A stretch of 64,000 nt of DNA from Coraliomargaritaceae bacterium (GTDB lineage Bacteria > Verrucomicrobiota > Verrucomicrobiia > Opitutales > Coraliomargaritaceae): contig CBFHKU010000005.1 of the NCBI GenBank assembly GCA_965656495.1, forward strand, positions 118,348 to 182,347, read 5' to 3'. Below are positions 33,702 to 64,000 of the stretch, piece by piece (within the stretch, counting starts at the first letter, position 1; each line of letters begins with the position of its first letter). The translations under genes and the position numbers were made by a program. The notes beneath the pieces were generated by a model. The model saw nothing but the letters and a program-made list of their open reading frames with translations. It ran no database searches and was not told the DNA's origin.

Positions 33702-35531
33702 CTACTTCCCGGTTTTGGCGAGTTTACGGCGTTTGTTGGCGTCGAGTTCGCGCTTGCGCATTCGCAGGAAATTCGGGGTCGCTTCCACCAGTTCATCCGG
33801 CGCGATGTATTCAATGGCGCGTTCAAGGGAAAATTTGATGGGTGGGGCGAGTTGAATGCCCTTGTCGGAACCGGAGGCGCGCATGTTGTCGAGTTGCTTG
33901 GCTTTGGCGGGGTTGACCGGCATATCCTCGCGGCGCGGGTTCTCCCCCACGATCATTCCGTTATAAACTTCCTCGCCGGGGCCGATGAAGAGCTTGCCAC
34001 GGTTCTGGATCGCATCGAGGGCGTAGGGCATCGCCTTGCCGAGCTCCATGCTCACGAGCGTTCCCGTCAGGCGCGTTGAAATCTCGCCGCAATAAGGGCG
34101 GTATTCTAAAAAGGAATGGCTCATGACCCCGTGGCCGGAAGTCATGGTGACGAGGTCGCTTTCAAATCCAATCAATCCCCGGGTCGAAACTTCCGCTTCG
34201 ACCGTGACGCCGGCATTGTGGTGTTCCATGTGGGTGACCTTGCCCTTGCGCTTGGCAAGATTCTCCATAATTCCGCCGAGGTGCTCCTCCGGTGTTTCCA
34301 CCCAGACCTGTTCAAAGGGTTCACAGCGTTTACCGTCGATTTCTTTGTATAAAACTGTCGGGCGCGAGACCAGCACTTCAAAGCCCTCCCGCCGCATCGT
34401 TTCCACCAATACCGCAATCTGCATCGCACCCCGGGCGTTCACCCGGAATTTCGTCCCCTCGTCGGTATCTTCCACTGAAATCGAAATATTGGACTGCGTT
34501 TCGCGAATCAGGCGTTCCCGAATCTGGCGCGAGGTCACCTTTTTCCCATCCTGACCTGCCAGCGGACCGTTGTTGACCGAAAATTCCATCTGCACCGTTG
34601 CAGGGTCGAGTTCCACAAAGGGCAGCGCTTCTGCGTCTTCATTCAAGGCAAGGGTGTCGCCGATATCGACATCCTCAAATCCCGCCAGGCCTACGATATC
34701 ACCGGCCACCGCCTCCGTGACTTCGTCCGTCGCCAGACCGGAGAAGGTTTTCATCTTGGTGATCTTGACGCGTTGACGGCGCCCGTCCTTACGGAGTGCA
34801 AAGATGCCCTGACCTTGCTTTACCTCGCCGGAGAGCACGCGCCCAATCGCCATGCGGCCCACGTAATCATCCCAATCGATATTGGACACCAGCATACGGA
34901 AATCACCCGCCTCGATGGTAGGAGGGGGGATGCGCTCCACAATCGTTTCAAAAAGATCCGTCATGTTTTCGCGCGGGCCCTCGGGGCTGCGATCCGCAAA
35001 GCCCATCTTGGCGGAGGCGTAGAGAAAAGGCGCGTTGAATTGATCATCGTCCGCTTCGAGATCAAGGAACAATTCCAGTACCTTGTCGTGCACCCAATCC
35101 GGGCGTGAAGTGTCGCGGTCGACCTTGTTGATAACGCAAATCGTCTTGAGTCCCGCATCGAGCGCCTTGCGAAGGACCCAGCGCGTCTGCGCCTGTGGTC
35201 CGCCCACTGCATCGGTCAGAAGTAAAACGCCATCCACCATCTTCATGACACGTTCCACTTCTGCCCCGAAATCCGCGTGCCCAGGAGTATCGACAATATT
35301 GATGGTATAGGTGATCCCGTCCTGCGGGTTTTCCCAGCGCACCGCGGTATTCTTCGCCTTGATTGTGATGCCCTTCTCGCGCTCGAGATCCATGGAGTCC
35401 ATGGCACGTTCCTCGACCTGTTGATTCTCACGAAAGGTGCCGCTCTGTTGCAGGAGGCAATCCACCAAAGTGGTCTTCCCGTGGTCAACGTGAGCAATGA
35501 TGGCGATATTGCGGATGTGTTCAGCGTTCAT
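33702..35531 (-). CDS. typA: translational GTPase TypA/BipA
   Basis: AHVDHGKTT, EREKGITIKAK, DTPGHADFG, NKVD. Confidence 0.98.
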   Translation of the reverse strand: MNAEHIRNIAIIAHVDHGKTTLVDCLLQQSGTFRENQQVEERAMDSMDLEREKGITIKAKNTAVRWENPQDGITYTINIVDTPGHADFGAEVERVMKMVDGVLLLTDAVGGPQAQTRWVLRKALDAGLKTICVINKVDRDTSRPDWVHDKVLELFLDLEADDDQFNAPFLYASAKMGFADRSPEGPRENMTDLFETIVERIPPPTIEAGDFRMLVSNIDWDDYVGRMAIGRVLSGEVKQGQGIFALRKDGRRQRVKITKMKTFSGLATDEVTEAVAGDIVGLAGFEDVDIGDTLALNEDAEALPFVELDPATVQMEFSVNNGPLAGQDGKKVTSRQIRERLIRETQSNISISVEDTDEGTKFRVNARGAMQIAVLVETMRREGFEVLVSRPTVLYKEIDGKRCEPFEQVWVETPEEHLGGIMENLAKRKGKVTHMEHHNAGVTVEAEVSTRGLIGFESDLVTMTSGHGVMSHSFLEYRPYCGEISTRLTGTLVSMELGKAMPYALDAIQNRGKLFIGPGEEVYNGMIVGENPRREDMPVNPAKAKQLDNMRASGSDKGIQLAPPIKFSLERAIEYIAPDELVEATPNFLRMRKRELDANKRRKLAKTGK

Positions 35532-35641
35532 GGTCGCGGCGTAAAAATAAAAATCGCCCCGGCGGCAGTGTGCGGCGGGGCGGTCAATTGCACGCCGCGA
35601 TAAGGGCGGCGCACGCGCGGGAAGTCAATGCGAAAGGGTTC

Positions 35642-35859
35642 TTTAACGCTGAGCTTGCTTTTATTTTAAACACAGAGGATCGGAGGGGTATTCTTAAACA
35701 CAGGGGATTGGAGGGCTTATATTTAAACACGGTGAATAGGCGGGGCCGTGTTCAAGGATGTGGGCTAGGAATCATTGATACTCTGTGTTTATGATTCTGC
35801 GCAGGCTTGGTGTCTTTGATGCTCGGTGTTTGATGTTTGCTCTGCAGCATGGCGTTAAA
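35642..35859. repeat. small nested palindromic repeat island
   Basis: TTAAACAC units at 35666, 35694 and 35723, mirrored by GTGTTYA/GTGTTTG units at ~35746, 35781 and 35822; outer TTTAACGC...GCGTTAAA. Confidence 0.7.
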
Positions 35860-35861: not shown

Positions 35862-37220
35862 CTACACCGTGTACTGCTCCCCCGGGGTGGGGTCGAGGAT
35901 CTCGCTCTCGGGCATGCGCTTGCGGAGTTCTTTACTGAACCATTGGCGAGCCTCGGTATCGCCGTGGGTCAGAACCACCGCCCGCGCTTCGGATTGGACG
36001 GCGTAGTCGGCGAGTTCTTCGCGGTTGGCGTGTCCACTGAGGTCGAATTGCTCGACTGAGGCGCGGATCGGGGCGCGGTATTCGAGGGTGTCGAAATAAA
36101 AATGAGACGCTTCGGGGTCGGCGAGTAGTTTCCCGCCGGGGGTGTCGGGATCATTATAGCCGACGAAGCAGACTCCGTTTTTGGGGTGGGGCAGGAGCGC
36201 GGCGGCGGTTTTATAAGAGGGTGTGTGTTCGACCATCATGCCGCTGCTTAGGAGGTAGATCCCTTTTTTGGGGAGGTCGCGACCGGGACGGAGGTTGAAT
36301 TCGAGGGCTTTAACGCGCATGCGTTCGAGCATTTGCAGGTCGAAGTCAATGAGGCGGGTCTTTTTGCGGATTTTATCGAAGTAATTGCAGAGGTCCATGC
36401 CGAGACCCGCCGCAAAAATAGGGCAACGCGGAAGGCGCCCAAAGTTTCGAGCCTCGTAGATGATCTTGAAGAGTTCCTGCATACGGCCGAGGGCGAAAGT
36501 GGGGATGAGGCAACTGCCTCCGCGTTCGAGGATCGCGCTGATGGAATCGATGAGGCGGTCGACTTCAGTGGCGCGGGTGGTTTCGGGGCAACGGGCTTTG
36601 GCGCCCCGGGTGGTCTCGAGCACTAGGGTGTCGATTTTTCCGGTGGGGAGGTGGGCGCCGGGGAGGGTGCGTTGCGCTTCGAAGAGGATATCGCCGCTGA
36701 AGACGATGCGGCGGTGCTTGTAGATAAATTCCACCGCGGCGGCCCCGATGACGTGCCCGGCGGGATGGAGGATGACTTCGATCTGATCCTTGCCCTTGGT
36801 GTGGATTTCGCTGCGCTCAAAGCGTTGCCCGTAGAGTTGGCGGGAAAAGATGGCGATCTCGCGATGGTGGAAGAGGGGGAGTTCCGGGATGCCGTGTTCC
36901 TCGCGCTGGCGTTTCATGACGTTGACGGAATTGCGCAGCATCCGGGGGGCGAGGAAGGTATTGGGAAGGCTCGTAATGATCGGGGCGTGGGGATTGCGGG
37001 CCGCAATGAGCGGCATCGAGCCGAGGTGATCGAGGTGGCAATGGGTCAGCACAATGAGATCGATGCTCCGGTCGGCGATGGCGGCGTGGTCGGGGAGGGC
37101 GTCTTTGCCCATCATTTTGGGGTGGAGTCCGGAATCGACTAGAATGTTGAAATCACCGAGGCGGATGAAATGGGAATTGGCTCCGATGCCGCCGTGGCGG
37201 TTGAGGTCGATGAGTTCCAT
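35862..37220 (-). CDS. MBL-fold beta-CASP ribonuclease
   Basis: THCHLDHLG, AGHVIG, FSGD, FALGRMQEL, SGHA. Confidence 0.9.
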   Translation of the reverse strand: MELIDLNRHGGIGANSHFIRLGDFNILVDSGLHPKMMGKDALPDHAAIADRSIDLIVLTHCHLDHLGSMPLIAARNPHAPIITSLPNTFLAPRMLRNSVNVMKRQREEHGIPELPLFHHREIAIFSRQLYGQRFERSEIHTKGKDQIEVILHPAGHVIGAAAVEFIYKHRRIVFSGDILFEAQRTLPGAHLPTGKIDTLVLETTRGAKARCPETTRATEVDRLIDSISAILERGGSCLIPTFALGRMQELFKIIYEARNFGRLPRCPIFAAGLGMDLCNYFDKIRKKTRLIDFDLQMLERMRVKALEFNLRPGRDLPKKGIYLLSSGMMVEHTPSYKTAAALLPHPKNGVCFVGYNDPDTPGGKLLADPEASHFYFDTLEYRAPIRASVEQFDLSGHANREELADYAVQSEARAVVLTHGDTEARQWFSKELRKRMPESEILDPTPGEQYTV

Positions 37221-44120: not shown

Positions 44121-46286
44121 TCAGGCGAGCCACATCCCGATTTGATAGGTGAGAACCGCCGCCACCCAGGCGAGGGCGGTTAGCCCAAAGAAACTTCCCG
44201 CGGCCCAGCCCCAGTGCAATTCCTTTGCAATCACCGCGACCGTTGCGCCGCATTGCATACAGAGGGCGAAGAATACCATGATGGAAAGCGCCACCGGTAA
44301 ATTGAAGACCGCCTCCCCGGTGCGCGGTCCCGATTCCCATTTCGCTTTGGTGAGGGTGGTGCGCAAGTCGTCCGAGCCTTCATCGATTTCCCCGCCGAGG
44401 GCGTAGGTGATCCCAAGGGTGGAAATAATGATTTCGCGGGCGGGGAAACTGGCGAGCACTCCGACCGTGATCTTCCAGTCATAGCCCGCCGGCGCGAAGA
44501 TCGGTTGCACGGTGCGTCCAAAACGTCCCATGTAGCTTTGTTCGAGGTAGGCGGCATTGACGCGGTGCTCGAGTTGCGCAGGGGAAAGAGCGGTGCTGCT
44601 TTCCGCCGCGGTCGCTTCGACCGCCTCGGCAAGTTCGGGCGGACGGGGAAAATAGAGGAGCGCCCAAATGACAATCGTCATGGCGCAAATCACGGTGCCG
44701 GCACGAATGATGAATTCCGAACCGCTCTCGTAGAGGCGATGCCAGATGCGGCTCAGTTGCGGCACGCGGTAATGGGGCAGCTCCATCACGAAGGGTTGGC
44801 TCGTCACGGAACGCGGGAGACTGCGGTGCAGGAGCCAGGCGAGCGGCCCCGCCAGCAATACCCCGATAAAATGCATCGCGAAGAGCGTGAGGCCCGCGAC
44901 TGCCGCGCCGTATTGCGGTTCAATAAAAGCCCCGATCATAAGGAGGTAAACCGGGAGACGCGCCGAGCAGCTCATGAGGGGCGCAATGAGAATCGTGATG
45001 CAACGCGCCTTGGGATCGCTGATCGTGCGGGTCGCGAGAATCCCCGGAATCGCACAGGCAAAACTGGAGAGGAGCGGCACGAAACTCTTGCCGTTCAAAC
45101 CGCTCCACGAAAAAAGTTTATCCATCAAAAAAGCGGCGCGTGCCATGTAGCCGGTCTCTTCCAAAAGCGCGATGAAGAAGAAGAGCACCAGGATCTGCGG
45201 CAGGAAAACCAAAAAGGCGCCAACCCCGCCAATCACGCCGTCCACTACCAGACTTTGTAACATGGGCGTCGCCGTCAAAAACCCGCCCGCGAAATCGCCG
45301 AGCTTCCCAACCCCGCCCTCGATTAAATCCATCAGCGGCCCCGCCCAAGTGTACACCGATTGAAAGACCACATACATCATCCCCACAAAGACGAGGAGGC
45401 CCCACACACGGTGCAGGAGGAGTTGATCAATGCTCTCGGAGGCGCTGCGTTTTTTCATGGCGGCCTGCCGTTCGAGAATGTCGTTGAGAAGGGGGTTGAG
45501 GAAACGATAGCGCAGGAGGGATTCTGCGGCATCGGGTTGATAGCCCCCCGTGTGGAGTTGTTCGCGGGCGCGGCGCAGGATCGGTTCGCGTTCCGCCGCG
45601 GGGGTCTTGAGGCGTTCCGCCACCGCGCTGCGTTTGTCAAAGAGGAGGCGTTGCAGTTCCCCTTCGCGCAGCGCTTCCCCGCGGTGCTCGATCAATTCAC
45701 TGCGCAAATAGTCCAGCGATTCCGTGACTGCTTCGGGCCAACGGGGACGCACCAGCATCGGTCCAGTCTCGAGGGCGCGGGTCACCGCATCCGCGAGGGC
45801 TCCCGTGCCGCGACGGGTGCGGGCCACGGTCGGCACCACCGGAACCCCGAGGCGTTGCTCCAGTAGTTTGCTGTCAATTTGCAAACCCTTGCGCTCCGCT
45901 ACGTCCCAGCAATTCAACGCAATCACCATCGGCACGCCCAACTCCGAGGCCTGCGAGGCAAGGTAGAGATTCCGTCTTAAATTTTCAACATCGACCACCA
46001 CGATCACGAGGTCGGGTGGGACGGCATCCGCGGAATGCCCCGCCAGAACGTCCACCGCCACGCGTTCATCGAGCGAGACCGCATTTAAATTATAGGTGCC
46101 GGGCAGGTCGATGAGATCGACCCGTTCCCCGCTCGGAAGAGTCCAGGTCCCGGTCTTTTTCTCCACCGTGACCCCCGCGTAATTCCCGACGTGCTGGTGC
46201 AGGCCGGTCAACATATTGAAAAGGGAGGTCTTGCCGGTGTTCGGATTCCCGATCAGCGCAACGCTCAACTGGCGGTCCGCATTCAT
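44121..46286 (-). CDS. feoB: ferrous iron transporter B
   Basis: GNPNTGKT, NYAGVTV, DLPG, GYMARAA, MSCSARLP. Confidence 0.97.
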   Translation of the reverse strand: MNADRQLSVALIGNPNTGKTSLFNMLTGLHQHVGNYAGVTVEKKTGTWTLPSGERVDLIDLPGTYNLNAVSLDERVAVDVLAGHSADAVPPDLVIVVVDVENLRRNLYLASQASELGVPMVIALNCWDVAERKGLQIDSKLLEQRLGVPVVPTVARTRRGTGALADAVTRALETGPMLVRPRWPEAVTESLDYLRSELIEHRGEALREGELQRLLFDKRSAVAERLKTPAAEREPILRRAREQLHTGGYQPDAAESLLRYRFLNPLLNDILERQAAMKKRSASESIDQLLLHRVWGLLVFVGMMYVVFQSVYTWAGPLMDLIEGGVGKLGDFAGGFLTATPMLQSLVVDGVIGGVGAFLVFLPQILVLFFFIALLEETGYMARAAFLMDKLFSWSGLNGKSFVPLLSSFACAIPGILATRTISDPKARCITILIAPLMSCSARLPVYLLMIGAFIEPQYGAAVAGLTLFAMHFIGVLLAGPLAWLLHRSLPRSVTSQPFVMELPHYRVPQLSRIWHRLYESGSEFIIRAGTVICAMTIVIWALLYFPRPPELAEAVEATAAESSTALSPAQLEHRVNAAYLEQSYMGRFGRTVQPIFAPAGYDWKITVGVLASFPAREIIISTLGITYALGGEIDEGSDDLRTTLTKAKWESGPRTGEAVFNLPVALSIMVFFALCMQCGATVAVIAKELHWGWAAGSFFGLTALAWVAAVLTYQIGMWLA

Positions 46287-46510
46287 CCGATCGCTTCTAC
46301 TTCAATCCGCGCCGCGTCCTCAATCCGCAGACTCATCTGACAACCGTTGAATTCAATCGCGATGGGATCCCCCAGCGGGGCCTCGTGCGTGAGGCGCAAT
46401 TCCTGATCCGGCAACAATCCCATCGTCATCAGACGCGCGATGCAGGGATTCCCGCTGTCGAGTTTCGTGACACGGAAGAGGCCGTCTTTTTTTATTCGAT
46501 CCAGTCGCAT
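46283..46510 (-). CDS. feoA: ferrous iron transport protein A
   Basis: RLMTMGLLP, APLGDPI, SLR; 4-bp overlap with feoB. Confidence 0.92.
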   Translation of the reverse strand: MRLDRIKKDGLFRVTKLDSGNPCIARLMTMGLLPDQELRLTHEAPLGDPIAIEFNGCQMSLRIEDAARIEVEAIG

Positions 46511-46529
46511 AGCTAATAAGAGCATTCAA

Positions 46530-46544
46530 TGAGATTTAGTCTCA
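46530..46544. promoter_or_regulatory. putative Fur-family operator
   Basis: TGAGATTTAGTCTCA ~20 bp upstream of the feoA ATG. Confidence 0.7.
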
Positions 46545-46590
46545 ACTGGCAACGAAGAAAAACCGCGAATCTAAAGAAAGCAAACCGGGC

Positions 46591-47127
46591 TTATAATTCG
46601 GAACCGAAGCGGGCCTTGTGACCTTTTGCAACCGCCACGTATTTGTCCGCCCATTCGCGGATTCCGGCGCGCTCCTCCGCGCTGAGTTCACGCACCACTT
46701 TAGCGGGTGCTCCCAGTACCAGCGAACCCGGCGGCACAATCGTTCCCTTCGTCACCAGCGCCCCCGCGCCCACGATCGATTGTTCCCCGATCACCGCGCC
46801 GTCCAGCACCGTCGCCTGCATCCCGATCAAACATTCGTCCCCGATTTCACAGGCATGAATCATTGCAGCGTGACCAATCGTCACGTAGCGACCGACCTTC
46901 ACCCCGAGTTCATCCGCCAAATGCACAATTGTCCCGTCCTGCACATTCGAGCCTTCCCCGATCTCAATCGTCTGGATATCACCCCGCAGGACCGCCCCGT
47001 GCCACACACTGCTGCCCGGCCCCAGCGTCACCGCTCCAATCACCACCGCACCCTTCGCCACGTAGGCGTCCGCCGCCACTTCCGGTTTGCGATCCAAATA
47101 TTCCTCCAAACGTTCTTCTATGGTCAT
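46591..47127 (-). CDS. gamma carbonic anhydrase family protein
   Basis: Hexapeptide repeats, LRGD, NVQDG..H, GH...H. Confidence 0.93.
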   Translation of the reverse strand: MTIEERLEEYLDRKPEVAADAYVAKGAVVIGAVTLGPGSSVWHGAVLRGDIQTIEIGEGSNVQDGTIVHLADELGVKVGRYVTIGHAAMIHACEIGDECLIGMQATVLDGAVIGEQSIVGAGALVTKGTIVPPGSLVLGAPAKVVRELSAEERAGIREWADKYVAVAKGHKARFGSEL

Positions 47128-47184: not shown

Positions 47185-47656
47185 CGTTGTAGGTTGTTAG
47201 TTGGGATCAGTCTTAATCTTAATAAGATGAAATATTCACCACGAAGGCAGTAAGAGCACGGAGCGGTGAGTGGACGCTGAATCTTTAATGAAAATCTCTG
47301 TGTACTTGGTGCCTTTGTTGTGAACTAATAAAGAACCACGCATGGAGAGGGAGTAGTGCCTTGAAGGTAAGAAACATCGAATATCGAACTTTGAAAAGGG
47401 GCAATGGGTTTGAATTAAACCACAGATTGCGCAGATGAGCACAGATTAAGACACTGTAACCGATCATCTGCGGTTGAGATGACCCTAGATCCTACTCTTA
47501 TTCTTAATCTTACCCTTGGTAAGAGGAAATATTCACCACGGAGAAACGGTATATCGTGGAAGCGGCAATCCTGCCGCTTTTGCTTGTGGCTGAAAAGCGA
47601 CAAGAGTGTCGCTTCCACGTCAGGTGTTTGAAAAGCGACAAGAGTGTCGCTTCCAC
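47185..47656. repeat. modular repeat island B-left
   Basis: Same modules as island A; REP-A at 47556, REP-B at 47595-47618 and 47633-47656. Confidence 0.93.
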
Positions 47657-47727
47657 GGTGAGCAATCAGATCAAGGCCACTTTTGAGTTGGCAAAGGAAT
47701 GACAGTTGTGCTTTAACCAAAAACTGC

Positions 47728-47913
<186 letters not shown>

Positions 47914-47919
47914 ATTCCC

Positions 47920-50377: not shown

Positions 50378-50387
50378 ACCACGCGCC

Positions 50388-50795
50388 TCAACCCTGATGC
50401 AGGGCGTCCTCGATCGCGCGCTTCACTTCCAACGGTTGCGCCATCCATTTCAACTGCACATCGCTCACCCCGCGACCCGTCACCGCAATGGTGGCATAGC
50501 CGAAAATACGACCCCAAATACTCTGACGAATCTCCACCGTCTCCACCGAACCGAGGCGCATCTCCTCACTGTGACGACTGATGATGCCCTTCTTGAAAAC
50601 CACCCGTTTGTTGGTGACCGCCTGTTCAATGCACTTCAGGCGCAGGTATTCATAACCCGCCACCAACAAAGTAATCCCAAAAGTCGGAATCGCCAACACG
50701 ATCCAACCCACAAACCGCAACCACGCTATCCAATGCAGCTTAAAGGTTGATTGAATCGCTTCTTCGGACGAGAGGGTTTTTTCAATATAAGACAT
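50388..50795 (-). CDS. bacterial PH-domain membrane protein
   Basis: MSYIEKTL..EE, TM, VTNKRVVFKKGII, QSIWGRIFGY. Confidence 0.85.
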   Translation of the reverse strand: MSYIEKTLSSEEAIQSTFKLHWIAWLRFVGWIVLAIPTFGITLLVAGYEYLRLKCIEQAVTNKRVVFKKGIISRHSEEMRLGSVETVEIRQSIWGRIFGYATIAVTGRGVSDVQLKWMAQPLEVKRAIEDALHQG

Positions 50796-50882
50796 CGCAT
50801 GCTCGGTGGATGCCGAAAAATCTAAGACGCACTCACACACCCGCAAGGGAAAAGCGGAGAGGTTATTTGTAATTTGCTGGAG

Positions 50883-51110
50883 GTATGAAAGTCGGATGGT
50901 AGCGTGAATGTTAAACATCGAACTTTGAAGGAGCTGAAGGGGTTGTTAGTTGGAACCACGAATGGACACGAATTGGCACGAATAGTTTGGAGGCGGGATT
51001 ACCCTAGGTCTTACTCCCAATCTTACTCTTAATCCTACTCTCAATAAGGAGGAACGTCGAAGTGCGACAGAGGCTGCATACGGTGGAAGCGGCAATCCTG
51101 CCGCTTTGCT
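50883..51110. repeat. modular repeat island D-left
   Basis: GGTTGTTAGTTGGAACCACGAATGGACACGAATTGGCACGAAT, CTTACTC module, REP-A at 51083. Confidence 0.92.
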
Positions 51111-51169
51111 TGCGATTGGGATTCCATTCTTTTGGTTCCGCGCCTCCTTCCGCGACAAGGGTTCAAGTC

Positions 51170-51589
51170 TTAGAGTGCTTGGATTCCTTCCGGGCTGGAC
51201 TGCTTTGTCTTTTTCCTTTTGGTTCGATACGCCTTTGGAGGCAGACAGTTGTCTGCGCCTCGCTTGGATTTTGGGTGTGCGACCCAATGCCCGGTCTGTC
51301 CCTTTGGCACAAAGGTCTGTGCCAAGTCCGCGCCGACGGCATGACCGGCGCGCACAAGGGTATCGATGGTGAGGTTGCTGTCGCCGCTGAGCATTTTAGT
51401 GATGCGGGAGTTTGGAACCTGCATGCGGGCGGCGAGTTCGGAGCGGTTGATGCCCTCGCGCTTCATAAACTGGAGGAGTGCTTCGACGATCGCGAGCTTG
51501 CAAAGTTCAACGTGGTATTCGACGTCCTCCTGGGTTTGCTTGATGGCATCTGCCAGCGGATTCAGTTTCGTTGTGTGGGTGATTTTCAT
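51170..51589 (-). CDS. Xre-family HTH protein, probable HigA-like antitoxin
   Basis: MKREGINRSELAARMQVPNSRITKMLSGDSNLTIDTLVR. Confidence 0.8.
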   Translation of the reverse strand: MKITHTTKLNPLADAIKQTQEDVEYHVELCKLAIVEALLQFMKREGINRSELAARMQVPNSRITKMLSGDSNLTIDTLVRAGHAVGADLAQTFVPKGQTGHWVAHPKSKRGADNCLPPKAYRTKRKKTKQSSPEGIQAL

Positions 51590-51594
51590 TCTTT

Positions 51595-52020
51595 TTAGCG
51601 GATGGTGATATTTGTCTGTGGCTCCAAGATGGCGTCCATGAATTGCTGTTTGATGAATTGGGCGCGTTGAATATCTGAGTTTTGTTGCTTGCGGGTATTT
51701 TTGTTACCTCCATTGGTGCAGAGAATCAGCTGCGATTGGTCATGAAGGGAGTGGTAAAAGGCATAGAGGCGAAGACCACCGCGTTTGAATTCGAAAAGAC
51801 CGTCTTCAATGTGCCGAAAGGTGATTTGATTTTCGTAGGAGTCATAATTTGCGACTGATGTGATGCGTGCATAAATGGAGCGCCATTTCCGGTAGTCATC
51901 TTTGTGTAACTTCTGGAGGAAATCCTGCGCATAATCTCTACCGTTTAAGCCGAGCGTAACCACTCGCTGACAGGTACCAATGTGAAGGGTGGAAAGGGTG
52001 ATGTCAATTTTAGATTTCAC
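51595..52020 (-). CDS. RelE/ParE (HigB/Gp49-like) toxin
   Basis: FRHIEDGLFEFK..LRLYAFY...LILCTNG..K; upstream of the HTH gene (toxin-first order). Confidence 0.7.
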   Translation of the reverse strand: MKSKIDITLSTLHIGTCQRVVTLGLNGRDYAQDFLQKLHKDDYRKWRSIYARITSVANYDSYENQITFRHIEDGLFEFKRGGLRLYAFYHSLHDQSQLILCTNGGNKNTRKQQNSDIQRAQFIKQQFMDAILEPQTNITIR

Positions 52021-52189: not shown

Positions 52190-52705
52190 GGTGGGAAAGT
52201 GGGAAGGTGTGAAAGTGGGAAGGTGAGGAACGTCGAACATCGAACATCGAACTCTGAAGGGGTTGTTAGTTGAACGTTGTTGGTTGTTAGTTGGAACCAC
52301 GAATGGACACGAATTGGCACGAATAGTTTGGAGGCGGGAATACCCTTACTCCTACTCTTATTCTTAATCCTACTCTCAATAAGAGAAACGTCGAAGGGCG
52401 ACCGGGTTGTATACCGTGGAAGCGGCAATCCTGCCGCTTTTTTGTGGCTGGAACCACGAATGGACACGAATTGGCACGAATAGTTTGGAGGCGGGAATAC
52501 CCTTACTCCTACTCGTATTCTTAATCCTACTCTCAATAAGAGAAACGTCGAAGGGCGACCGGGTTGTATACCGTGGAAGCGGCAATCCTGCCGCTTTTTT
52601 GTGGCTGGAACCACGAATGGACACGAATTGGCACGAATGGAGAGGGGGTTGTAAGTTGAAGGTAAAGAACGTCGAACATTGAACATCCAACATCGAACTT
52701 TGAAG
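52190..52705. repeat. modular repeat island D-middle with 157-bp tandem duplication
   Basis: Unit starts at 52292, 52449 and 52606; REP-A at 52416 and 52573. Confidence 0.95.
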
Positions 52706-52764
52706 GGACGTAGGATTTTTCAAATCGCTTGCGTTTTGGCGGGAGAAATGCTTTTATTTGTTTT

Positions 52765-52940
52765 AACCCTGCGGTGTTCGATTTCATCCGGAGTATCTGT
52801 CCTTTACTGATTTGAATATGGGGGCTGACCCTGGGGCTTCGCTGTCCAGCCGTAAACCGGAAGACAAACAGGCTCGAGGAAGCACCCACCTTGTATTTCA
52901 AAGGCTAAGATCTCCCATCCGTCCGGCACCTGCGGGGCTT
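52765..52940 (+). ncRNA. ssrS: probable 6S RNA
   Basis: Closing stem CCCTGCGGTGTTCG / CGGCACCTGCGGGG; inner TGGGGGCT / AGCACCCA pair flanking a central bubble; ~176 nt; TTGCGT-N17-TTTTAT promoter with extended TG upstream; T-run at the end. Confidence 0.75.
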
Positions 52941-52971
52941 TTTTGTGCGCGGGTGGGAGGCGCTTTTGAGG

Positions 52972-53314
52972 GAACGCTGAACATCGAACGCTGAGCTTTG
53001 AAGGGGGAGTGGTTTTGAATTGAACCGCAGATTGCGCAGATGGGCGCAGATCAAGTCACCGTTCAAACTAATCTGCGGAAATCTGCGTCATCTGTGGTTG
53101 GTATTACCCTTACTAAGAAGCGGTTAATCACGAATAGTCACGAATGAGGTTTACTACAAAGAAACAAAGGTCACGGAATGGATCTTTAGACGAGAAGGTG
53201 GGAAAGTTCGGAGGATGAGCGGGATTAAATTAAGAGTAAGACTGGGAGTGAGACTGAGAGTGGGAACCTCCCCGACCGGTCAAGCCGGTCACCCCGCCTT
53301 ATCAAGGCGGGGAG
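52972..53314. repeat. modular repeat island D-right
   Basis: AACATCG module, 77-bp AACC..GCAGAT..ATCTG..GGTT palindrome 53023-53099, CACGAAT module, double hairpin 53266-53314. Confidence 0.85.
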
Positions 53315-53348: not shown

Positions 53349-53735
53349 AACATCAAACGCTTTCCGTCTGATTTCATGTTTGTTTTGAGTTCTAATGAAT
53401 TCAAGGACTGGAGGTCACAATTTGTGACCTCCAAGGCGGATCTTAAAGGGCTGCGCTATGCGCCGATGGCGTTTACGGAGCAGGGTGTTGCGATGCTTTC
53501 AAGTGTGCTTCGGAGCTCGAAGGCAATAGAGGTAAATATCGCGGTGATGCGTACTTTTGTGCGGCTCCGCAATCTCATGGTTTCCCATAAGGATTTGGCA
53601 GATAAAATCCTAAATTTGGAAAATAAATACGAGGAACAATTCCAAGTTGTTTTTAAAGCGATTCAGGCACTCATTGCCTCAGAGGAAGCGGAAGGAAGTG
53701 CTCCAAAAAGAAAAATGGGTTTTAGGGTCGATTAA
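53349..53735 (+). pseudogene. 5'-truncated ORF6N-domain protein
   Basis: NIKRFPSDFMF...RSQFVTS...YAPMAFTEQGVAMLSSVL...VNIAVMRTFV; the family N-terminus (IRGQKVMLDxDLA..LYGV) is missing and repeats occupy its place. Confidence 0.75.
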
Positions 53736-54541
53736 CTCTCCTGAGCGAGTTCGATGGAGCGGTCGCGGGCGGCGGTGAGGGCTTTTTCAATGAGTCCTCG
53801 GAGGTCGTTGTCGGAGAAGGTTTTGAGGGCGGCGGCGGTGGTGCCGCCTTTGGAGGTGACGGCGTCGCGGAGGGTTTCGGGGTCCTGCTCGGATTGAAGG
53901 AGGAGGGCGGCGGATCCGTAAATGGTGTGGAGGGCGAGGGAGTGGGCGAGGAGGGGGTCGAGTCCGAGTTGGATGCCGGCGTCGCGGAGGGCGGCGGTGA
54001 ATTCAAAGAGGTAGGCGGGGCCGGAGCCGGAAAGGGCGGTGATGGCGTCGAGTTGGGATTCCTCCACGGCGTGGTAATTGCCGAGGGCGGTGAGGATGGC
54101 TTTGACGCGTTGTTCGTCTTCGGGGTCGAGTGCCTGGGCGGGGGTGTAGGCGGTGATACCGGCGCCGATTTGCCCGGGGGTGTTGGGCATGGTGCGGACG
54201 ATGTTGCGGGCTTTGGGGAAGGTGGATTGCAGTTTTTGGAGGGGGGTGCCGGCGAGGATGGAGAGGATGAGTTTGCCCTCGGTAGCGGCGATGAGTTCGG
54301 GGTCGATTTGAGGGAGCTGCTGGGGTTTGCAGGCGAGGACGAGGGTGTGGGCGTCGCGGATCGCGGGGGCGAGGTCGGGGGCGTAGGTGATGCCGGTGGT
54401 GGCGGCGAGTTCGGGGCCGGAGGGGTCGTCGCCGCAGGTGCAGGCGATTTCGGCGGGGGCGTAGTGTTTGTTTTGAAGGAGGCCGTGGATGATGGCGCTT
54501 GCCATGCGTCCGGCTCCGAGAAATGCGATTTGGGTGCTCAT
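53732..54541 (-). CDS. proC: pyrroline-5-carboxylate reductase
   Basis: GAGRMA, CKPQ, RTMPNTP, SGSGPAY, VTSKGGTT. Confidence 0.96.
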   Translation of the reverse strand: MSTQIAFLGAGRMASAIIHGLLQNKHYAPAEIACTCGDDPSGPELAATTGITYAPDLAPAIRDAHTLVLACKPQQLPQIDPELIAATEGKLILSILAGTPLQKLQSTFPKARNIVRTMPNTPGQIGAGITAYTPAQALDPEDEQRVKAILTALGNYHAVEESQLDAITALSGSGPAYLFEFTAALRDAGIQLGLDPLLAHSLALHTIYGSAALLLQSEQDPETLRDAVTSKGGTTAAALKTFSDNDLRGLIEKALTAARDRSIELAQES

Positions 54542-54549
54542 GGGATGGA

Positions 54550-55176
54550 TTAGCTCTGAGGTGGCAGTTCGTTTTTCAAATGTTTTTGGTCGATGACGGC
54601 GGTGCGGGAGAGGAGGTCGTGTCCCATCTGGCGGCGTTTGTTGAAGCAGAGGGTGAGGAGGGTGGCGATGAGGAGGAGGGGGCTGAGGAAGAAGAGGGTG
54701 GCGGTTTTGAGTCCGGCGCGGAGGAAGGCGGCGAAGAAGTTGAGGGGACCGAGGGTGATGGTGCTGATGGATTGGAGGCGGCAGGCGCGTTTGCCGAGTG
54801 AGCCGCCGAGGAAGATTTCACCGATGCCGAAGTAGGCCCAGAAGGTGAGGAGTTGGACCTCGGAGGCGTAACGGAGGGCGGCGAGGAGGTCCTTGCCGGG
54901 TTCGGGCATGGTCTCGCGGGTGGCCTCGGTGCTTTGCATCCATTTTAGGAGTTGGTCGACCCATTCGTTGAGTTCGAGGAAACTGCCGGGGTGGGACATC
55001 GGGAGGAAGATCTTCCAGATGAGAAGGGTGGCAATGGCGCTGCAAAGGATGAAATCGAGGAGGAAGGCGAGGCTGCGGATTCCGAGTCGCGCGGGCGGCA
55101 TGGGGCCGTCGTCGGACAGGATCGTGTCGAGGACGTTGGCGGGTTGTTGATTTGTGCCGGATTCGCTCATGCTCAT
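54550..55176 (-). CDS. RDD family membrane protein
   Basis: RSLAFLLD, SLGK, HDLLSRT. Confidence 0.85.
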   Translation of the reverse strand: MSMSESGTNQQPANVLDTILSDDGPMPPARLGIRSLAFLLDFILCSAIATLLIWKIFLPMSHPGSFLELNEWVDQLLKWMQSTEATRETMPEPGKDLLAALRYASEVQLLTFWAYFGIGEIFLGGSLGKRACRLQSISTITLGPLNFFAAFLRAGLKTATLFFLSPLLLIATLLTLCFNKRRQMGHDLLSRTAVIDQKHLKNELPPQS

Positions 55177-55191
55177 GGGGGGAGGGGCGGC

Positions 55192-56070
55192 TCAGTCCTG
55201 GGCCTGGGCGAGTTTGAAGGCGCGGAGGGTGTTGTGCATGAGCATCGCGACCGTCATGGGGCCAACGCCGCCGGGGACGGGGGTGAGGTGGCTCGCCTTG
55301 GGGGCGATGGCGTCGTAATCGGCATCACCGACGAGGCGGTAGCCGCGTTTCGCCTCGGGATCTTCGACGCGGTTGATGCCGACGTCGATGATGGCGGCGC
55401 CGTCCTTGACCATGTCGGCGGTGAGGAAATGGGGGCGCCCGATCGCGGCGATGATGAGGTCGGCCTGACGGGTGATGGCGGGGAGGTCGGCGGTGCGGGA
55501 ATGGCAGACCGTGACGGTGGCGTTGCCGGGGAGGGCTTTGCGCATCATGAGGAGGGCGGCGGGTTTGCCAACGATCTGGCTGCGCCCGAGGACCACGACG
55601 TGTTTGCCCTCGGTCTCGATTCCGCTGCGGGCGATGAGTTCAACGATGCCGGCGGGGGTGCAGGCGACGAAACCCGAGTCGTCTTCCTGACAGAGTTTGC
55701 CGATGTTGACGGTGTTGAATCCGTCGACGTCCTTGTGGGGGGCGACGCGGTTGAAGGTCTCCGTTTCGTCGAGGTGTTTGGGGAGGGGCGCCTGCACGAG
55801 GATGCCGCTGACGGCGGGGTCGGCATTGAGGGCGTCGATGCGTTCAAAGAGGGTTTCGCGGGTGACGTCGCCGGGGAAGAGGTGGAGTTGGCTGCCGATT
55901 CCGATGCGGGCGGCGGTCTTTTCTTTTTTGCGGACGTAGGAGACCGAGGCGGGATCTTCACCGACGCGAATGAAGGCGACGGTGGGTTTGGCACCGGGGA
56001 GGGCGCTGACCTCGGCAGTGAGTTCTTCGATGATGGATTCGGCGATGGCGTTGCCGTCGATGCGTTGCAT
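55192..56070 (-). CDS. folD: methylenetetrahydrofolate dehydrogenase/cyclohydrolase
   Basis: [34 protein letters not shown]. Confidence 0.98.
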
Positions 56071-56092
56071 GGCTGGGTGGGTTGGTGTTGGA

Positions 56093-56833
56093 TTAACGGG
56101 AATTGAGAAAGAGGCGTTCGATGTCTTTGCGTGCGAGGATTTTGATACCGCCTTTCGGCATACCTTTCAAGACCATCTGACCGATTTGTACGCGCACGAG
56201 TTTTTTGACGAAGTAGCGGTTCGCTTCGAAGAGGCGGCGGACTTCGCGTTTTTTGCCGTGGTGGAGGTGGACTTCGAGGCGGCGGGCGTGGCCTTCGCCG
56301 GCTTCGGGGGCGGGAATGACTTTTTCCGCTTTGAGGAATTCGCCTTCGTCCTCGACCCCGTTGAGGAGTTTCGGGATGTCGGCCTTGTTGAAATCGCGGT
56401 GGAGGACGACGCGGTAACGCTTTACGATTTGGTTGCTGGGGTGGGTGAGTCGGTGGGCGAGGTCGCCGTCGTTGGTGAGGACGAGGAGGCCTTCGCTATC
56501 CTTGTCGAGGCGTCCGGCGCAGAACATGCGTTGGCGCTGGAGGTCGGCGGGGAGGAGGTCAAAGACGGTTTGTCCGCCGTGGGGATCGGAGTTGGTGCAG
56601 AGGAAGCCCTTGGGTTTGTTGAGGATGAGGGTGACAGGGCGGGCGGTCTCGGTGGGGAGGGGCTTTTTGTTAACGAAGATGGCGTCGTCGGGTTGACCTT
56701 TATCGCCGAGTTCGGCGATTTTGCCGTTGTGGCGGACTTTGCCGTCGCGGATGAGGGCCTCTGCTTCGCGGCGGGAACAGAGTCCGGCGTTGGCGATGAT
56801 TTTCTGGAGGCGTTGTGGTTCTTGCTCGGGCAT
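56093..56833 (-). CDS. RsuA/RluB-family pseudouridine synthase
   Basis: S4 domain [25 protein letters not shown]. Confidence 0.92.
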
Positions 56834-56966
56834 GGGAGCACTTCAGTTGAGGAAGGGCGGGGTTGTCAATGTTGCGGAAAGGTAACATTCGTGCTTGCGC
56901 TGGCACGGGTTTATAAAAAGAACAGGTGATGTCGGCATTAAAGCCGAATGCGGACGAAAATAATCT

Positions 56967-57713
56967 ATGACAGAAGCAAGTGAAAAAAAAGTAGCGCTGG
57001 TGACCGGAGCGGGTCGCGGAATTGGAAAAGCAATCGCGGAACGTTTGGCGGATGCGGGGCATCACGTCATTTGCGTGAGTCGATCCGAGGGATCGTGCGG
57101 CGCGGTGGCGGAAGCGATTGTTGCGGCGGGCGGTTCGGCGGAGAGCCGGGCGGTGGACGTGGCGGACCGGGCTGCGATTGAAGCGGCGAGTGCGGCGTTT
57201 TTGGAAACACACGGGACGGTCGATATTCTCGTGAATTGCGCGGGGATCACGCGGGATGGTTTATTGTTCCGGATGTCGGACGCCGACTGGGATGATGTTA
57301 TCGCGACGAATTTGAGCAGTGTCTTTGCGTGGAGTAAGTATTTGGCGCGCCCCATGACGCGGAAACGCTGGGGCCGCATCATCAACATCTCCTCCGTGAT
57401 CGGATTGATGGGGAACGCCGGGCAGGCGAATTACGCCGCGACCAAAGCGGGAATCCACGGGCTCACGAAGAGTCTCGCGAAGGAATTTGCGGCGCGCAAC
57501 GTCACGGTGAATGCGGTGGCACCGGGTTTTATCGCGACCGACATGACCGCGGAATTGAACGAACAGCAGCAGGAGGCGATCGTGGGGATGATCCCCCTCA
57601 AGCGGATGGGCGCCCCTTCAGACATCGCTGCAATGACGAGTTTTTTAGCCAGCGAGGATGCAGGCTTCATTACCGGCCAGGTTTTTACAGTTGACGGTGG
57701 CATGGTGATGTGA
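56967..57713 (+). CDS. fabG: 3-oxoacyl-ACP reductase
   Basis: TGAGRGIG, NCAGITRD, YAATK, VDGG. Confidence 0.96.
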   Translation: MTEASEKKVALVTGAGRGIGKAIAERLADAGHHVICVSRSEGSCGAVAEAIVAAGGSAESRAVDVADRAAIEAASAAFLETHGTVDILVNCAGITRDGLLFRMSDADWDDVIATNLSSVFAWSKYLARPMTRKRWGRIINISSVIGLMGNAGQANYAATKAGIHGLTKSLAKEFAARNVTVNAVAPGFIATDMTAELNEQQQEAIVGMIPLKRMGAPSDIAAMTSFLASEDAGFITGQVFTVDGGMVM

Positions 57714-60903: not shown

Positions 60904-60963
60904 AAATCGGAAAGGGACAGTGTTGGGACAAATGGCTATGGAGCAAGCGTGAAGGTTATTTGA

Positions 60964-61765
60964 GGTGGGAAGGTGGAGAACTTCGAACATCGAACATTGA
61001 ACGTTGAAGGTGGGACTATTTGTTGGGAAAGTGGGAAGGCGTAGAGGTGGGAAAGTTTGAAAGTTGGAAAGTATGAAGGTAGAAGTTCAACGTTGGATGT
61101 TCGATGTTGGACGTTTTTCCGGTGCTTTGCCCTGAGGCCAGCTTAGCTGGCGACCGCTGATGGGCACTTATTTTCGCTCATCCTTAAAACAAAACTATTA
61201 GTGTTTATAAGCGAGGATTAGCGGTTTCCGGCTGTGCCGGATTCAGGGCAGCACGCTGGATACAGTGGAAGCGGCAATCTTGCCGCTTTGCTTGTACGGC
61301 TTGGGTTGGAAAGCGACAAGAGTGTCGCTTCTACGCTTCCAAGGTTCAACTAACAACTTCCAACCCCATAACCACACAGTCTCTGCGTTAAAATTTCCAA
61401 GCTCCGTGCCTTTGCTCCTCAGCGTTTTTACTTCCAACCCCACAGCGCTGCCCTGAGGCCAGCTTAGCTGGCGACCGCTGATGGGCGCTTATTTTCGCTC
61501 ATCCTTAAAATAAAAATATTAGCGTTTATAAGCGAGGATTAGCGGTTTCCGGCTGTGCCGGATTATTCACCACGAAGGCGCGGAGCGCACGGAGCGGTGC
61601 CTGACACTGAATCTTTAATGAAAATCTTCGTGTACTCGGCGTCTCGGTGGTGAGTTGGATATTCGATGTTCTTAAGCCCTATCCCTATTCGTTTTATTTG
61701 TGTCCATTCGTGGTTAGAAATTCGGGGTTGGAAGTTCAGCGTTCGAAGTTCGATGTTCGAAGTTG
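60964..61765. repeat. modular repeat island E
   Basis: AACATCG and GTGGGAAA modules, REP pair 61265-61334, TGCCCTGA element at 61128 and 61449, CACCAC palindrome 61567-61653. Confidence 0.93.
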
Positions 61766-61810
61766 TAAGCGGGGTTGCGTTTGGTGGGGGAAGTTGGCAA
61801 GGGTGTTTGG

Positions 61811-64000
61811 ATGGAAAGTAAGGGTTTACCGATTCACGCGGTGGCGGGGGAAATTGTGGAGGGGATCCGGAAGATGGGTCGGGTGGTGCTGCAGGCTCCG
61901 ACGGGTTCGGGTAAGTCGACGCAGGTGCCGCAGATTTTGTTGGATGATGCGGGGGTGGAGGGTGCGATTGTGGTTTTGCAACCGAGGCGTTTGGCGGCGC
62001 GGATGTTGGCGGCGCGGGTGGCGCGGGAACGGGGGGTGAAGCTGGGGGAGGAAGTTGGGTATCAGATTCGTTTTGAGAATAAGACTTCGAAAGCGACGCG
62101 GATTCGATTTGTGACGGAGGCGATTCTTTTGCGTCAGTTGTTGGGGGATCCTTCGTTGCGGGGGGTGGGTGCGGTTGTGCTGGATGAATTTCATGAGCGG
62201 CATTTGACGAGTGATTTGAGTTTGGCGGGTGCTTTGGAATCGGTACGGACGGTGCGTCCGGATTTGAAGTTGGTGGTGATGTCGGCGACGCTGGATGTGG
62301 CGGGGGTGGCGGGATATTTGGAACCGGCGGCGTTGGTGGAGGCGAGTGGCCGGACTTATCCGGTGTCGGTGGAGTATGCGGGTGCGTCGTTGGGACGGGA
62401 GGCGGCGCCGGTATGGACGCGGGCGGCGCGGGCGTTTCGGGAGGTGGTGCGCGGGGGGACTGCGGGGGATGTTTTGATTTTTATGGCGGGGGCGTATGAG
62501 ATTCGGCGGACTCTGGGGGAACTGGAGGGATTGCCGGAGGCGCGGGGCTATGATTTGTGTCCGCTGCACGGTGAGTTGTCGCCGGAGGCGCAGGATCGGG
62601 CGGTGTCGCGGGGGGATCGACCGAAGGTGATTGTTTCGACGAATGTGGCGGAGACTTCGATTACGATTGAGGGGGTGCGGGTTGTGATTGATGGGGGTCA
62701 GGCGCGGGTGGCGCGGTATGATGCGCGGCGGGGGATCAATGCGCTTTTGGTGGAACCGATCAGTCGTGCGGCGGCGGAGCAACGGACCGGTCGGGCGGGT
62801 CGGACGGGGCCGGGTTTGTGTGTGCGTTTGTGGTCGGAGGCGGAGCATGGGGGTCGGGCGGAACGTGACACGCCGGAGTTGCAGCGGGTGGATTTGGCGG
62901 AGACGGTGTTGTTATTGCGCTCGGCGGGGGTGGATGATTTGGAGGGCTTTGCCTGGTTTGAACGCCCGGAGGGGGCGGCTTTGGAAAAGGCGGTGGGGTT
63001 GTTGGAAAGTTTGGGGGCGTTGGATTCGGGGGGTGTATTGACGGATCGCGGCTTGGCGATGGCGCGTCTGCCGTTGCATCCGAGGTATGCGCGGATGTTG
63101 TTGGAGGCGGCGCAGCGTGGGGTGCTGGGACCGGTCTCGCGGATCGCGGCGTTGAGTCAGGGGCGCCTGGTGTATCGTGCGAATGCGACGGGGGCGTCGC
63201 GGGGGGATCAGGTGCGGGCGATTGAGGATTTTTGCGGGGAGGATTCGGATTGGGAGTTGCAGTTGCGGGCTTTGGAGGTGGCGGGGGCGGCGGAGTATAA
63301 GTTGGAGCGGTGTGCGGGTTTGGGGATTCATGCGGGGGCGGCGCGGCAGGTGGGAACGGCGGCGAAGCAGTTGCGGGGATTGGTGCGGGATTACGCGGGG
63401 GACCGGGATGATTTGGATGCGAAGGGGATGTCGGAAGCGGTGGGGATGTGTTTGCTGTCGGCGTTCTCGGATTATTTGGCGTTAAGGAAGGATGGCGGGA
63501 CGCGGCGTTGTCGTTTGCTGGGTGAACGGGGCGGGGAGTTGCGGCGCGAGAGTGTGGTAGAAAGTGAACTTTTTGTGGCCTCGGAACAAGAGGAGCGGCA
63601 GGTGCGCGGGGAGGTGACGGTATTGCTGGGGATGGCGACGCGGGTGGAGTGCGCGTGGCTGGAGGCGCTTTTTCCGGAGGATTTCAAAGCGGTGGAGGAG
63701 ACGCGTTATGATGCGACGACGCGGCGGGTGGTGAGTGTGCGGGAGCGGCGTTTTCGGGATTTGGTATTGGAACGGGTTGAAGCGGGGGAACCGGATGCGG
63801 ATGCGGCGGGGGAATTGTTGGCGGCGGAGGTGTTGGCGGGTCGTTTGGTATTGAAGCAATGGGATGCCTCGGTGGAGGGATGGATCCGGCGGGTGAATTT
63901 TGTGGCGCGGCATTGTCCGGAAACGGAGATTGCGGCGATTGATGCCGAGGCGCGGGAATTATTGATCGGACAGATTTGCGCGGGGGGTACGAGTTACCGG
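61811..64000 (+). CDS. hrpB: ATP-dependent RNA helicase HrpB (runs off the window)
   Basis: Hand-translated MESKGLPIHA...QAPTGSGKST, VGYQIRFE, LDEFHER, MSAT, STNVAETSITIEG, QRTGRAGR; absent from the ORF track. Confidence 0.92.
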   Translation, partial: MESKGLPIHAVAGEIVEGIRKMGRVVLQAPTGSGKSTQVPQILLDDAGVEGAIVVLQPRRLAARMLAARVARERGVKLGEEVGYQIRFENKTSKATRIRFVTEAILLRQLLGDPSLRGVGAVVLDEFHERHLTSDLSLAGALESVRTVRPDLKLVVMSATLDVAGVAGYLEPAALVEASGRTYPVSVEYAGASLGREAAPVWTRAARAFREVVRGGTAGDVLIFMAGAYEIRRTLGELEGLPEARGYDLCPLHGELSPEAQDRAVSRGDRPKVIVSTNVAETSITIEGVRVVIDGGQARVARYDARRGINALLVEPISRAAAEQRTGRAGRTGPGLCVRLWSEAEHGGRAERDTPELQRVDLAETVLLLRSAGVDDLEGFAWFERPEGAALEKAVGLLESLGALDSGGVLTDRGLAMARLPLHPRYARMLLEAAQRGVLGPVSRIAALSQGRLVYRANATGASRGDQVRAIEDFCGEDSDWELQLRALEVAGAAEYKLERCAGLGIHAGAARQVGTAAKQLRGLVRDYAGDRDDLDAKGMSEAVGMCLLSAFSDYLALRKDGGTRRCRLLGERGGELRRESVVESELFVASEQEERQVRGEVTVLLGMATRVECAWLEALFPEDFKAVEETRYDATTRRVVSVRERRFRDLVLERVEAGEPDADAAGELLAAEVLAGRLVLKQWDASVEGWIRRVNFVARHCPETEIAAIDAEARELLIGQICAGGTSYR

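What the first reader, a model, noticed from the sequence alone, without database searches (positions are those of the whole stretch)
33900..64000. Strand G/C skew flips at repeat islands, independent of gene direction
Spot counts on 60-nt lines of the + strand. Left of islands: 46981-47040 has C31/G13 (minus-strand gene), 50281-50340 has C28/G12 (plus gene), 39961-40020 has C30/G14 (plus gene). Right of islands: 36661-36720 has G26/C12 (minus gene), 53941-54000 has G33/C11 (minus gene), 63601-63660 has G33/C10 (plus gene; hrpB third positions look nearly all G/T). C-to-G switches coincide by eye with islands at ~35.7, 47.2, 50.9 and 61 kb, with origin-like polarity at kilobase scale. Inference: repeated nicking and strand displacement, or local replication starting at islands, leaves a mutational halo in housekeeping genes. 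Caveats: lines were hand-picked; DNA right of inverted island C is C-rich; G-rich tracts at ~11-14 and 25 kb have no visible island.
Basis: partly seen in the sequence, partly recalled or inferred. Interest (0 to 1): 0.75.

Follow-up and report, generated by a model that had tools for sequence, protein, structure and literature searches.

The report
Strand-bias halos around insertion hotspots
In this marine bacterium and its close relatives, DNA on both sides of dozens of spots where repeats, tRNA genes and foreign genes sit has drifted in mirror image (C-rich on one side, G-rich on the other), as if each spot were a small replication origin, which may record where chromosomes break and swap DNA.

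Summary
At fourfold sites, corrected for codon bias, G-C skew steps up by 0.375 across repeat islands (50 of 64 positive; matched null 0.017±0.032, 0 of 2000). This holds for both gene directions and both island orientations, and fades over about 5-9 kb. Inversion, chimerism and codon bias do not explain it.

The islands mark the sites rather than cause them. tRNA genes and accessory-gene insertion points step too, REP hairpins do not predict step size, and congeners keep steps at some island-free orthologous gaps. Silent divergence is not raised; rates are redistributed between strands (C>G/G>C up to 4-fold), so this is not added damage.

Best guess (0.38): polar homologous recombination at these hotspots, with invading strands pointing at the site and MutS blind to C:C, gives strand-biased gene conversion. 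Main rival (0.25): outward DNA synthesis from the sites in a lineage where RecG was not found. The halos are strong only in one clade of a Coraliomargaritaceae-like genus. Ten paper searches found no description. Earlier scan notes report related mirror-image skews on other DNA.

The parts
32295..33684 (+). Repeat island A: mosaic of RAYT-type REP hairpins and short repeat modules; weak skew step
   Evidence: step +0.04; +0.58 over 400 bp
35630..35850 (.). Degraded module cluster between typA and an MBL nuclease gene; modest up-step
   Evidence: read by eye; step +0.51; not scored as island by k-mers
35862..37220 (-). MBL/beta-CASP gene, G-rich on + strand (residual +0.36)
46283..47127 (-). 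feoA and gamma carbonic anhydrase: C-rich halo against the replichore (residual -0.59, -0.70)
   Evidence: similar in 4 congeners
47191..48495 (+). Repeat island B around tRNA-Leu
47728..47814 (+). tRNA-Leu(CAG)
48445..49238 (-). Two accessory ORFs of no known family, not found in the congener loci fetched
49332..49905 (-). Repeat island C, inverted relative to the others
49955..50918 (.). Thioesterase (+) and PH-domain gene (-): C-rich halo left of islands D/E (-0.56, -0.42)
50919..51112 (+). Repeat island D
51170..52020 (-). Accessory HTH antitoxin-like and RelE-like pair (weak matches below cut-off)
52190..53241 (+). Repeat island E, flanking 6S RNA
52763..52942 (+). 6S RNA; conserved at this site in congeners with and without an island
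53376..53735 (+). Accessory ORF6N-domain gene fragment
53732..57713 (.). G-rich halo: proC, RDD, folD, rluB (minus) and fabG (plus); raw fourfold skew 0.95, 0.88, 0.82, 0.89, 0.32
60962..61764 (+). Repeat island F; module content differs among congeners and among strains
61811..64000 (+). hrpB: strongest G-rich halo (325 G, 19 C of 416 fourfold sites); appears to continue, fading, towards dnaA on contig C20

Best explanation
The step points are recurrent recombination and insertion hotspots: repeat islands, tRNA genes and accessory-gene slots that differ between strains. SHOWN: the strand running 5'->3' away from each site gains G and loses C for 3-9 kb on both sides, added to the normal replichore skew, without a higher silent rate. 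INFERRED: strand invasion next to such a site is polar. Whether it starts from a resected break at the site or is a transformation D-loop stopped by the heterology, the invading strand has its 3' end facing the site. Mismatch repair removes the invading allele when the mismatch is well seen (G:G, G:T) and misses it when poorly seen (C:C; A:C less than G:T is recalled, not checked). The net fixation bias is C>G, C>T and A>G on the outward strand: strand-polar biased gene conversion. Islands pile up at the same slots and probably reinforce them, since they are variable between strains and rich in hairpins.
For: Site classes: of 41 up-steps of 0.55 or more, 20 are at islands (64 of 1196 junctions), 7 at tRNAs (27), 4 at inserts; of 16 down-steps, 1 is at an island. 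Accessory TA-, RM- and Fic-like genes at other up-steps were read by eye. Symmetry: independent of island orientation (0.16±0.06 vs 0.19±0.05, n=48) and of gene boundaries. Length 3-9 kb resembles recombination tracts (own knowledge). Rates redistributed: G>A falls 4.3 to 2.7, C>T rises 4.5 to 7.0, C>G/G>C ratio 0.8 to 4.2, sum C>T+G>A 8.8-10.1. By position, ln(C>T/G>A) is 0.08, 0.41, 0.88 and ln(C>G/G>C) 0.34, 0.59, 1.41 for anti side, far and co side; no sequence-context preference. The largest asymmetry is in the pair MutS treats most unequally (PMC3167615 passages). Pneumococcal markers 5' of a heterology are recovered about 4-fold more (cited in PMC4824099 passages), which is the geometry needed. 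MutS, MutL, DprA, ComM and ComEC are present. Strains show mosaic tracts beside island F. Halos reach +0.9 to +1.1, far above the roughly +0.3 uniform skew in G004 and G012, which ordinary forks could not exceed.
Against: No direct evidence of breaks, tract ends or allele-frequency bias. The same spectrum appears in the replichore background, so replication direction explains it equally well. B. subtilis transformation is non-polar (PMC4824099). If T:C is well repaired, as PMC3167615 reports, T>G/A>C and C>A/G>T should shift, and they do not or lean the wrong way (co +0.31±0.43 and +0.02±0.33; anti -0.66±0.32). Recent anti-side rates are neutral rather than reversed. G004 has ComEC but weak halos. 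14 of 64 islands give no positive step, and inserts of 600 bp or more without an island or tRNA average only +0.04.
Confidence: 0.38

Rival explanations
1. The sites launch outward DNA synthesis: auxiliary origins, or break- or stall-induced PriA restart in both directions because RecG is missing. Fork direction near each site is then locally origin-like.
For: Saw-tooth shape with sharp up-steps. Constant summed rates and the same spectrum as the replichore. RecG over cut-off in 0 of 41 genomes of the order, with best matches in Mfd-sized frames. PriA and RuvABC present. E. coli recG mutants replicate divergently from breaks (PMC4752480, PMC7326373 passages). The main replichore switch is blurred over about 70 kb in G002.
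Against: RecG is also not found in G004 and G012, which have weak or no halos. Reversed sides are only about 5 kb long, yet would need most replication rounds reversed. Halos exceed the plateau skew. No DnaA-box excess. RNase HI is not found (0 of 25) but HIII is present in 25 of 25. A genome-wide replichore bias of +0.25 remains.
Confidence: 0.25
2. Outward transcription or R-loops from islands, tRNAs and 6S RNA expose or protect strands, whatever the direction of neighbouring genes.
For: tRNA and 6S sites step. Polarity fits a G-rich non-template strand.
Against: Plain divergent junctions +0.04±0.02 (142) and plain convergent -0.08±0.03 (122). The halo is not cut by changes of gene strand (0.16 vs 0.18). 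tRNA direction shows no evident effect (by eye). 6S lies beside proC in 2 of 11 other family-level loci without the halo (fabG -0.34 and -0.10 vs +0.32). Rho is present.
Confidence: 0.12
3. One reading: a RAYT HUH nuclease nicks REP hairpins, and 5' strand displacement exposes and deaminates the outward strand.
For: Two Y1/RAYT genes flanked by REP arrays. The polarity is right. TnpA-REP cleaves both strands of REP pairs and leaves a 3'-OH primer (PMC3333891 passages). Halo strength roughly follows island load across six related genomes (not independent).
Against: REP-bearing islands step 0.29 vs 0.27 without (39 of 69; adjusted -0.19±0.12). Steps at the two RAYT loci are only +0.28 and +0.11. 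RAYT found in 0 of 6 congeners. G012 has no halo beside Y1 genes. G>A falls and divergence is lower, unlike added damage.
Confidence: 0.08
4. Ordinary causes: expression-linked codon bias, a gene-anchored 5'-G/3'-C gradient, small inversions or chimeric contigs.
For: Coding-strand C preference exists, and a within-gene gradient of 0.075±0.012 persists far from sites. Highly expressed operons look C-rich.
Against: Both gene orientations shift equally (anti side -0.35 and -0.26). Inversions would put down-steps at islands too (1 of 16). Per-gene skew correlates 0.92-0.99 with four congeners. Independent assemblies from three studies match the window.
Confidence: 0.05

Closest known systems
Skew jumps / N-domains at eukaryotic and archaeal replication origins (PMC3459929 listing only; PMC3269012 passages)
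   Same: Sharp C-to-G up-steps with gradual decline, independent of gene strand
   Different: Bacterial chromosome with dnaA and a persisting replichore bias; 3-9 kb scale; steps at repeat, tRNA and insertion slots; no origin shown
GC-biased gene conversion and Hex/MutS marker effects (PMC3167615 passages; gBGC recalled)
   Same: Mismatch-repair asymmetry could fix alleles without raising the mutation rate; fourfold GC is higher near sites (0.85 vs 0.78)
   Different: The bias is G versus C on one strand and flips sign at the site; not found described at genome scale in my searches
Divergent replication at breaks in E. coli recG mutants (PMC4752480, PMC7326373 passages)
   Same: Origin-like polarity around a break; RecG not found here
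   Different: There a mutant phenotype reaching at least 50 kb; here a stable evolutionary footprint of a few kb, absent in other RecG-lacking relatives
HGT hotspots lacking mobile elements (PMC5635113 passages)
   Same: Fast turnover of accessory DNA between conserved flanking genes, often at tRNAs
   Different: The passages read report more recombination in flanks, not a strand-skew footprint
REP/BIME/REPIN with RAYT (PMC3333891 passages)
   Same: Islands contain hairpin REPs matching those around a Y1/RAYT gene
   Different: Islands are mosaics with many non-REP modules; REP content does not predict the skew

Membership tests
Replication origin (oriC-like or auxiliary) | Skew switches from C-rich to G-rich at the site | tested here: met
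Replication origin (oriC-like or auxiliary) | Clustered DnaA boxes | tested here: not met
   2 matches in window vs 3.4 expected, none in islands; 9 perfect matches genome-wide, scattered; consensus recalled from E. coli and may not fit this group
Replication origin (oriC-like or auxiliary) | Copy-number peak or Okazaki strand switch | not testable with these tools
   only assembled contigs available
RAYT/REP system | Y1 HUH gene flanked by REP hairpins that recur genome-wide | tested here: met
RAYT/REP system | REP content determines the skew step | tested here: not met
ssDNA damage halo (resection or kataegis type) | Raised rate, context preference, C loss on the 3'-overhang strand | tested here: not met
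   divergence lower near sites; no context preference; polarity opposite to resection (inference)
Biased gene conversion | Recombination and mismatch-repair machinery; allele exchange among strains | tested here: met
Biased gene conversion | Spectrum follows the mismatch-repair hierarchy | tested here: inconclusive
   C:G pair strongest, transitions next, other transversions do not follow
Biased gene conversion | Fixation bias in allele-frequency spectra | not testable with these tools
   one search listed 40 of 381 variant rows, unpolarised
   plain junctions -0.02 (965); gradient 0.075 far from sites

The most novel reading that the evidence does not exclude
This clade, in which RecG was not found, routinely starts DNA synthesis at dozens of DnaA-box-free chromosomal sites (tRNA, 6S and repeat or insertion slots) in addition to oriC. 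That would be a natural multi-origin or break-primed replication programme in a free-living bacterium, written into silent sites.
Probability: 0.2. Interest if true: 0.92.

Novelty: new variant of a known kind. Interest (0 to 1): 0.7.

Why it matters
Either leading reading bears on an open question. Strand-polar gene conversion would give a directional, single-genome signature of recombination hotspots and a clean test of whether biased conversion shapes bacterial base composition, because G-versus-C strand bias is hard to blame on selection for GC content. Outward synthesis would be evidence for natural multi-site initiation in a bacterium. In practice, local skew switches in such genomes would mislead origin prediction, inversion calls and codon-bias measures.

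Tried and rejected
First gene model picked antisense shadow ORFs in skewed regions (folD, rluB); replaced. The permutation (0.37 vs 0.04±0.05, 0 of 200) used that model and is superseded. A hand-built motif classification of islands was not done; islands were defined from computed k-mers, which miss degraded or lineage-specific modules. The REP test picked the wrong repeat family (2 islands) and was redone. Loss of RNase HI as a cause was rejected because HIII is in 25 of 25 genomes. oriC at dnaA was rejected: no sign change there. DnaA-box scans near the G002 switch showed no excess. Simple parsimony on deeper branches was too biased to use. No RNA holder and no raw-read run was listed, so transcription and depth were not tested. 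Polymorphism spectra were unusable. Only 100 kb of G012 was examined. Missing hits for RadA, Ung, DinB, SbcCD, RecC and DnaQ rest on single E. coli queries; FtsK was also missed, so assembly gaps are possible. One search fetched an unrelated paper. No supplements were read.
Full report
Setting. The window is the end of contig C5 of a 2.06-Mb, 31-contig genome. Holders of the sequence are mostly marine metagenomes. The closest named FolD relatives are an Opitutia MAG (98%) and Coraliomargaritaceae. No gene finder was available, so I wrote one. The second version is neutral between G and C at fourfold sites and agrees with NCBIfam assignments in the window. 'Residual' means fourfold G-C skew on the + strand after removing the coding-strand average of each codon family.

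Observation. All six counts are exact. Islands were defined from over-represented intergenic 11-mers (130 clusters). Among 1196 junctions between core-like genes (AT-rich genes dropped), the 64 with an island step +0.375, 50 positive; matched null 0.017±0.032, 0 of 2000. The step holds at convergent (+0.34, n=28), divergent (+0.66, n=8) and tandem (+0.33, n=28) junctions, whereas plain junctions give -0.08, +0.04 and -0.02. A blind scan finds 18 up-steps and 2 down-steps of 0.8 or more; 17 of 35 up-steps of 0.6 or more lie within 500 bp of an island (chance 3.7%) and 0 of 17 down-steps do. Against a background of +0.25, the side opposing the replichore is -0.03 in the first kb and recovers by about 5 kb; the other side is +0.42 and fades over about 9 kb. 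Genes with and against the fork shift alike, and the halo runs through gene boundaries and strand changes. Island orientation does not matter.

What the islands are. Mosaics of hairpin REPs identical to those flanking a Y1/RAYT gene on C9 and of many short modules. The genome also has GxxExxY (7 matches) and four-helix-bundle genes (4); their link to such modules is recalled, not tested. Module content at one site differs between congeners and between strains.

Sites, not islands. Of 41 up-steps of 0.55 or more, 20 are at islands, 7 at tRNAs, 4 at long inserts, 1 at a weak island and 9 at plain junctions. For 14 chosen sites in 6 congeners, 32 of 84 site-genome pairs had both flanks on one locus. 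23 of these had under 30 bp of island k-mers and a measurable step, and 15 of the 23 still step 0.55 or more; 5 of the 8 weak ones are the 35.7-kb site. The measure misses degraded modules, and some gaps do look repeat-like. Clean cases: a 143-150 bp tRNA-Arg gap (0.90-1.18 in four genomes), 39- and 41-bp gaps (0.64, 0.34), a 93-bp terminator gap (0.57) and the 6S site in G001 (0.71; sequence). Against this, G004 upstream of hrpB and G001 at C1 74.5 kb lack both island and step (0.18 each). REP presence does not predict step size; island size does weakly (rho 0.28, n=100).

Distribution. Per-gene residuals over 196 genes (regions chosen around strong steps; fewer genes per species) correlate with G000 at 0.99, 0.99, 0.95, 0.92, 0.85 and 0.57 for G006, G003, G005, G001, G002 and G004. 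G004 has 3 weak islands and no step of 0.6 or more in 389 kb. G002 has 1 island in 400 kb, 1.1 kb from a 0.71 step, and 5 such up-steps in all. Within syntenic blocks their deviations are 0.37 and 0.54 of G000's. 100 kb of G012 (another genus) is nearly uniform at about +0.27, also beside Y1 genes. Other family-level proC loci lack the halo even with 6S adjacent (these may overlap handle genomes and are not counted as independent). The halos are thus strongest in the island-rich clade.

Substitutions. A 12-rate model on G000, G006 and G003, with genes classed by outgroup composition, shows from weak to strong class: C>T 4.5 to 7.0, G>A 4.3 to 2.7, C>G 1.7 to 4.1, G>C 2.1 to 1.0, A>G/T>C ratio 1.7 to 2.4 (noisy), with the C>T+G>A sum at 8.8-10.1. 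Classing by position gives the same order, with the anti side neutral rather than reversed (ribosomal operon dropped). Fourfold divergence is 0.107 within 1 kb of steps and 0.13-0.16 beyond 4 kb, about what the composition predicts (my arithmetic). There is no neighbour-base preference. The process is therefore ongoing and redistributes change between strands.

Mechanism. Deamination of resected single strands predicts the opposite polarity (inference); an earlier scan note, e1-1902801, reports that opposite polarity elsewhere (not checked). Two readings fit. (B) Polar heteroduplex plus MutS bias: left of a site the invading strand is the top strand, C:C escapes and G:G is rejected (PMC3167615 passages), so top-strand C accumulates on the left and G on the right. 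It accounts for site types, scale, amplitude above the plateau and unchanged rate. The genes needed are present, and a rough estimate of population size times tract coverage puts the required bias within reach (inference). Its weak points are the minor transversion pairs and the non-polar B. subtilis result (PMC4824099 passages). (A) Outward synthesis has a precedent in recG mutants (PMC4752480, PMC7326373 passages), and RecG was not found in 41 genomes, but relatives that also lack it have weak or no halos. Neither is shown.

Literature. Searches found no report of kilobase, origin-like skew halos at repeat, tRNA or insertion sites in a bacterium; the library lacks most subscription papers. 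PMC3269012 (passages) proposes multi-origin bacteria from genome-scale skew only. PMC5635113 (passages) reports more recombination beside hotspots. PMC3315797 was read as abstract only.

Verdict. A real, strong, clade-restricted and apparently undescribed compositional footprint. Interest 0.7.

Noticed in passing
whole order: RecG over cut-off in 0 of 41 genomes (best matches in Mfd-sized frames); RNase HI in 0 of 25, with HIII in 25 of 25
   Followed up: partly
G000 C11 end / C3 start; G002 C7 158-231 kb: The main replichore switch lies near mutS-ftsK-dnaN-recA-gidA, far from dnaA, and is blurred over about 70 kb; both G000 contigs end in islands there
   Followed up: partly
L001 (C9 69 kb) and L002 (C15 9.4 kb): Two Y1/RAYT genes with HUH motifs, each flanked by a different REP family; none found in 6 congeners that partly carry the REPs
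   Followed up: partly
window 60962-61764: The same spacer holds different module mosaics in each congener and varies among strains by small indels and rearranged joints
   Followed up: partly
window 59449-61152: Strain contigs carry divergent patches shared with a roughly 3%-divergent strain, next to identical stretches: recombination mosaics
   Followed up: no
window 47728-47900: The tRNA-Leu 3' end is repeated downstream, like an integration scar; similar at tRNA-Pro (C2) and tRNA-Met (C3)
   Followed up: no
window 25247-25996: Plus-strand gene with residual +0.67 and no island or tRNA beside it
   Followed up: no
G002: ComEC family not found (99% complete) although halos are intermediate; possibly fading relics
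   Followed up: no
window 52292-52605: 157-bp tandem duplication, 99% identical, inside island E
   Followed up: no
G000: No hit for E. coli RadA, Ung, DinB, SbcCD, RecC or DnaQ; FtsK also missed, probably in an assembly gap
   Followed up: no
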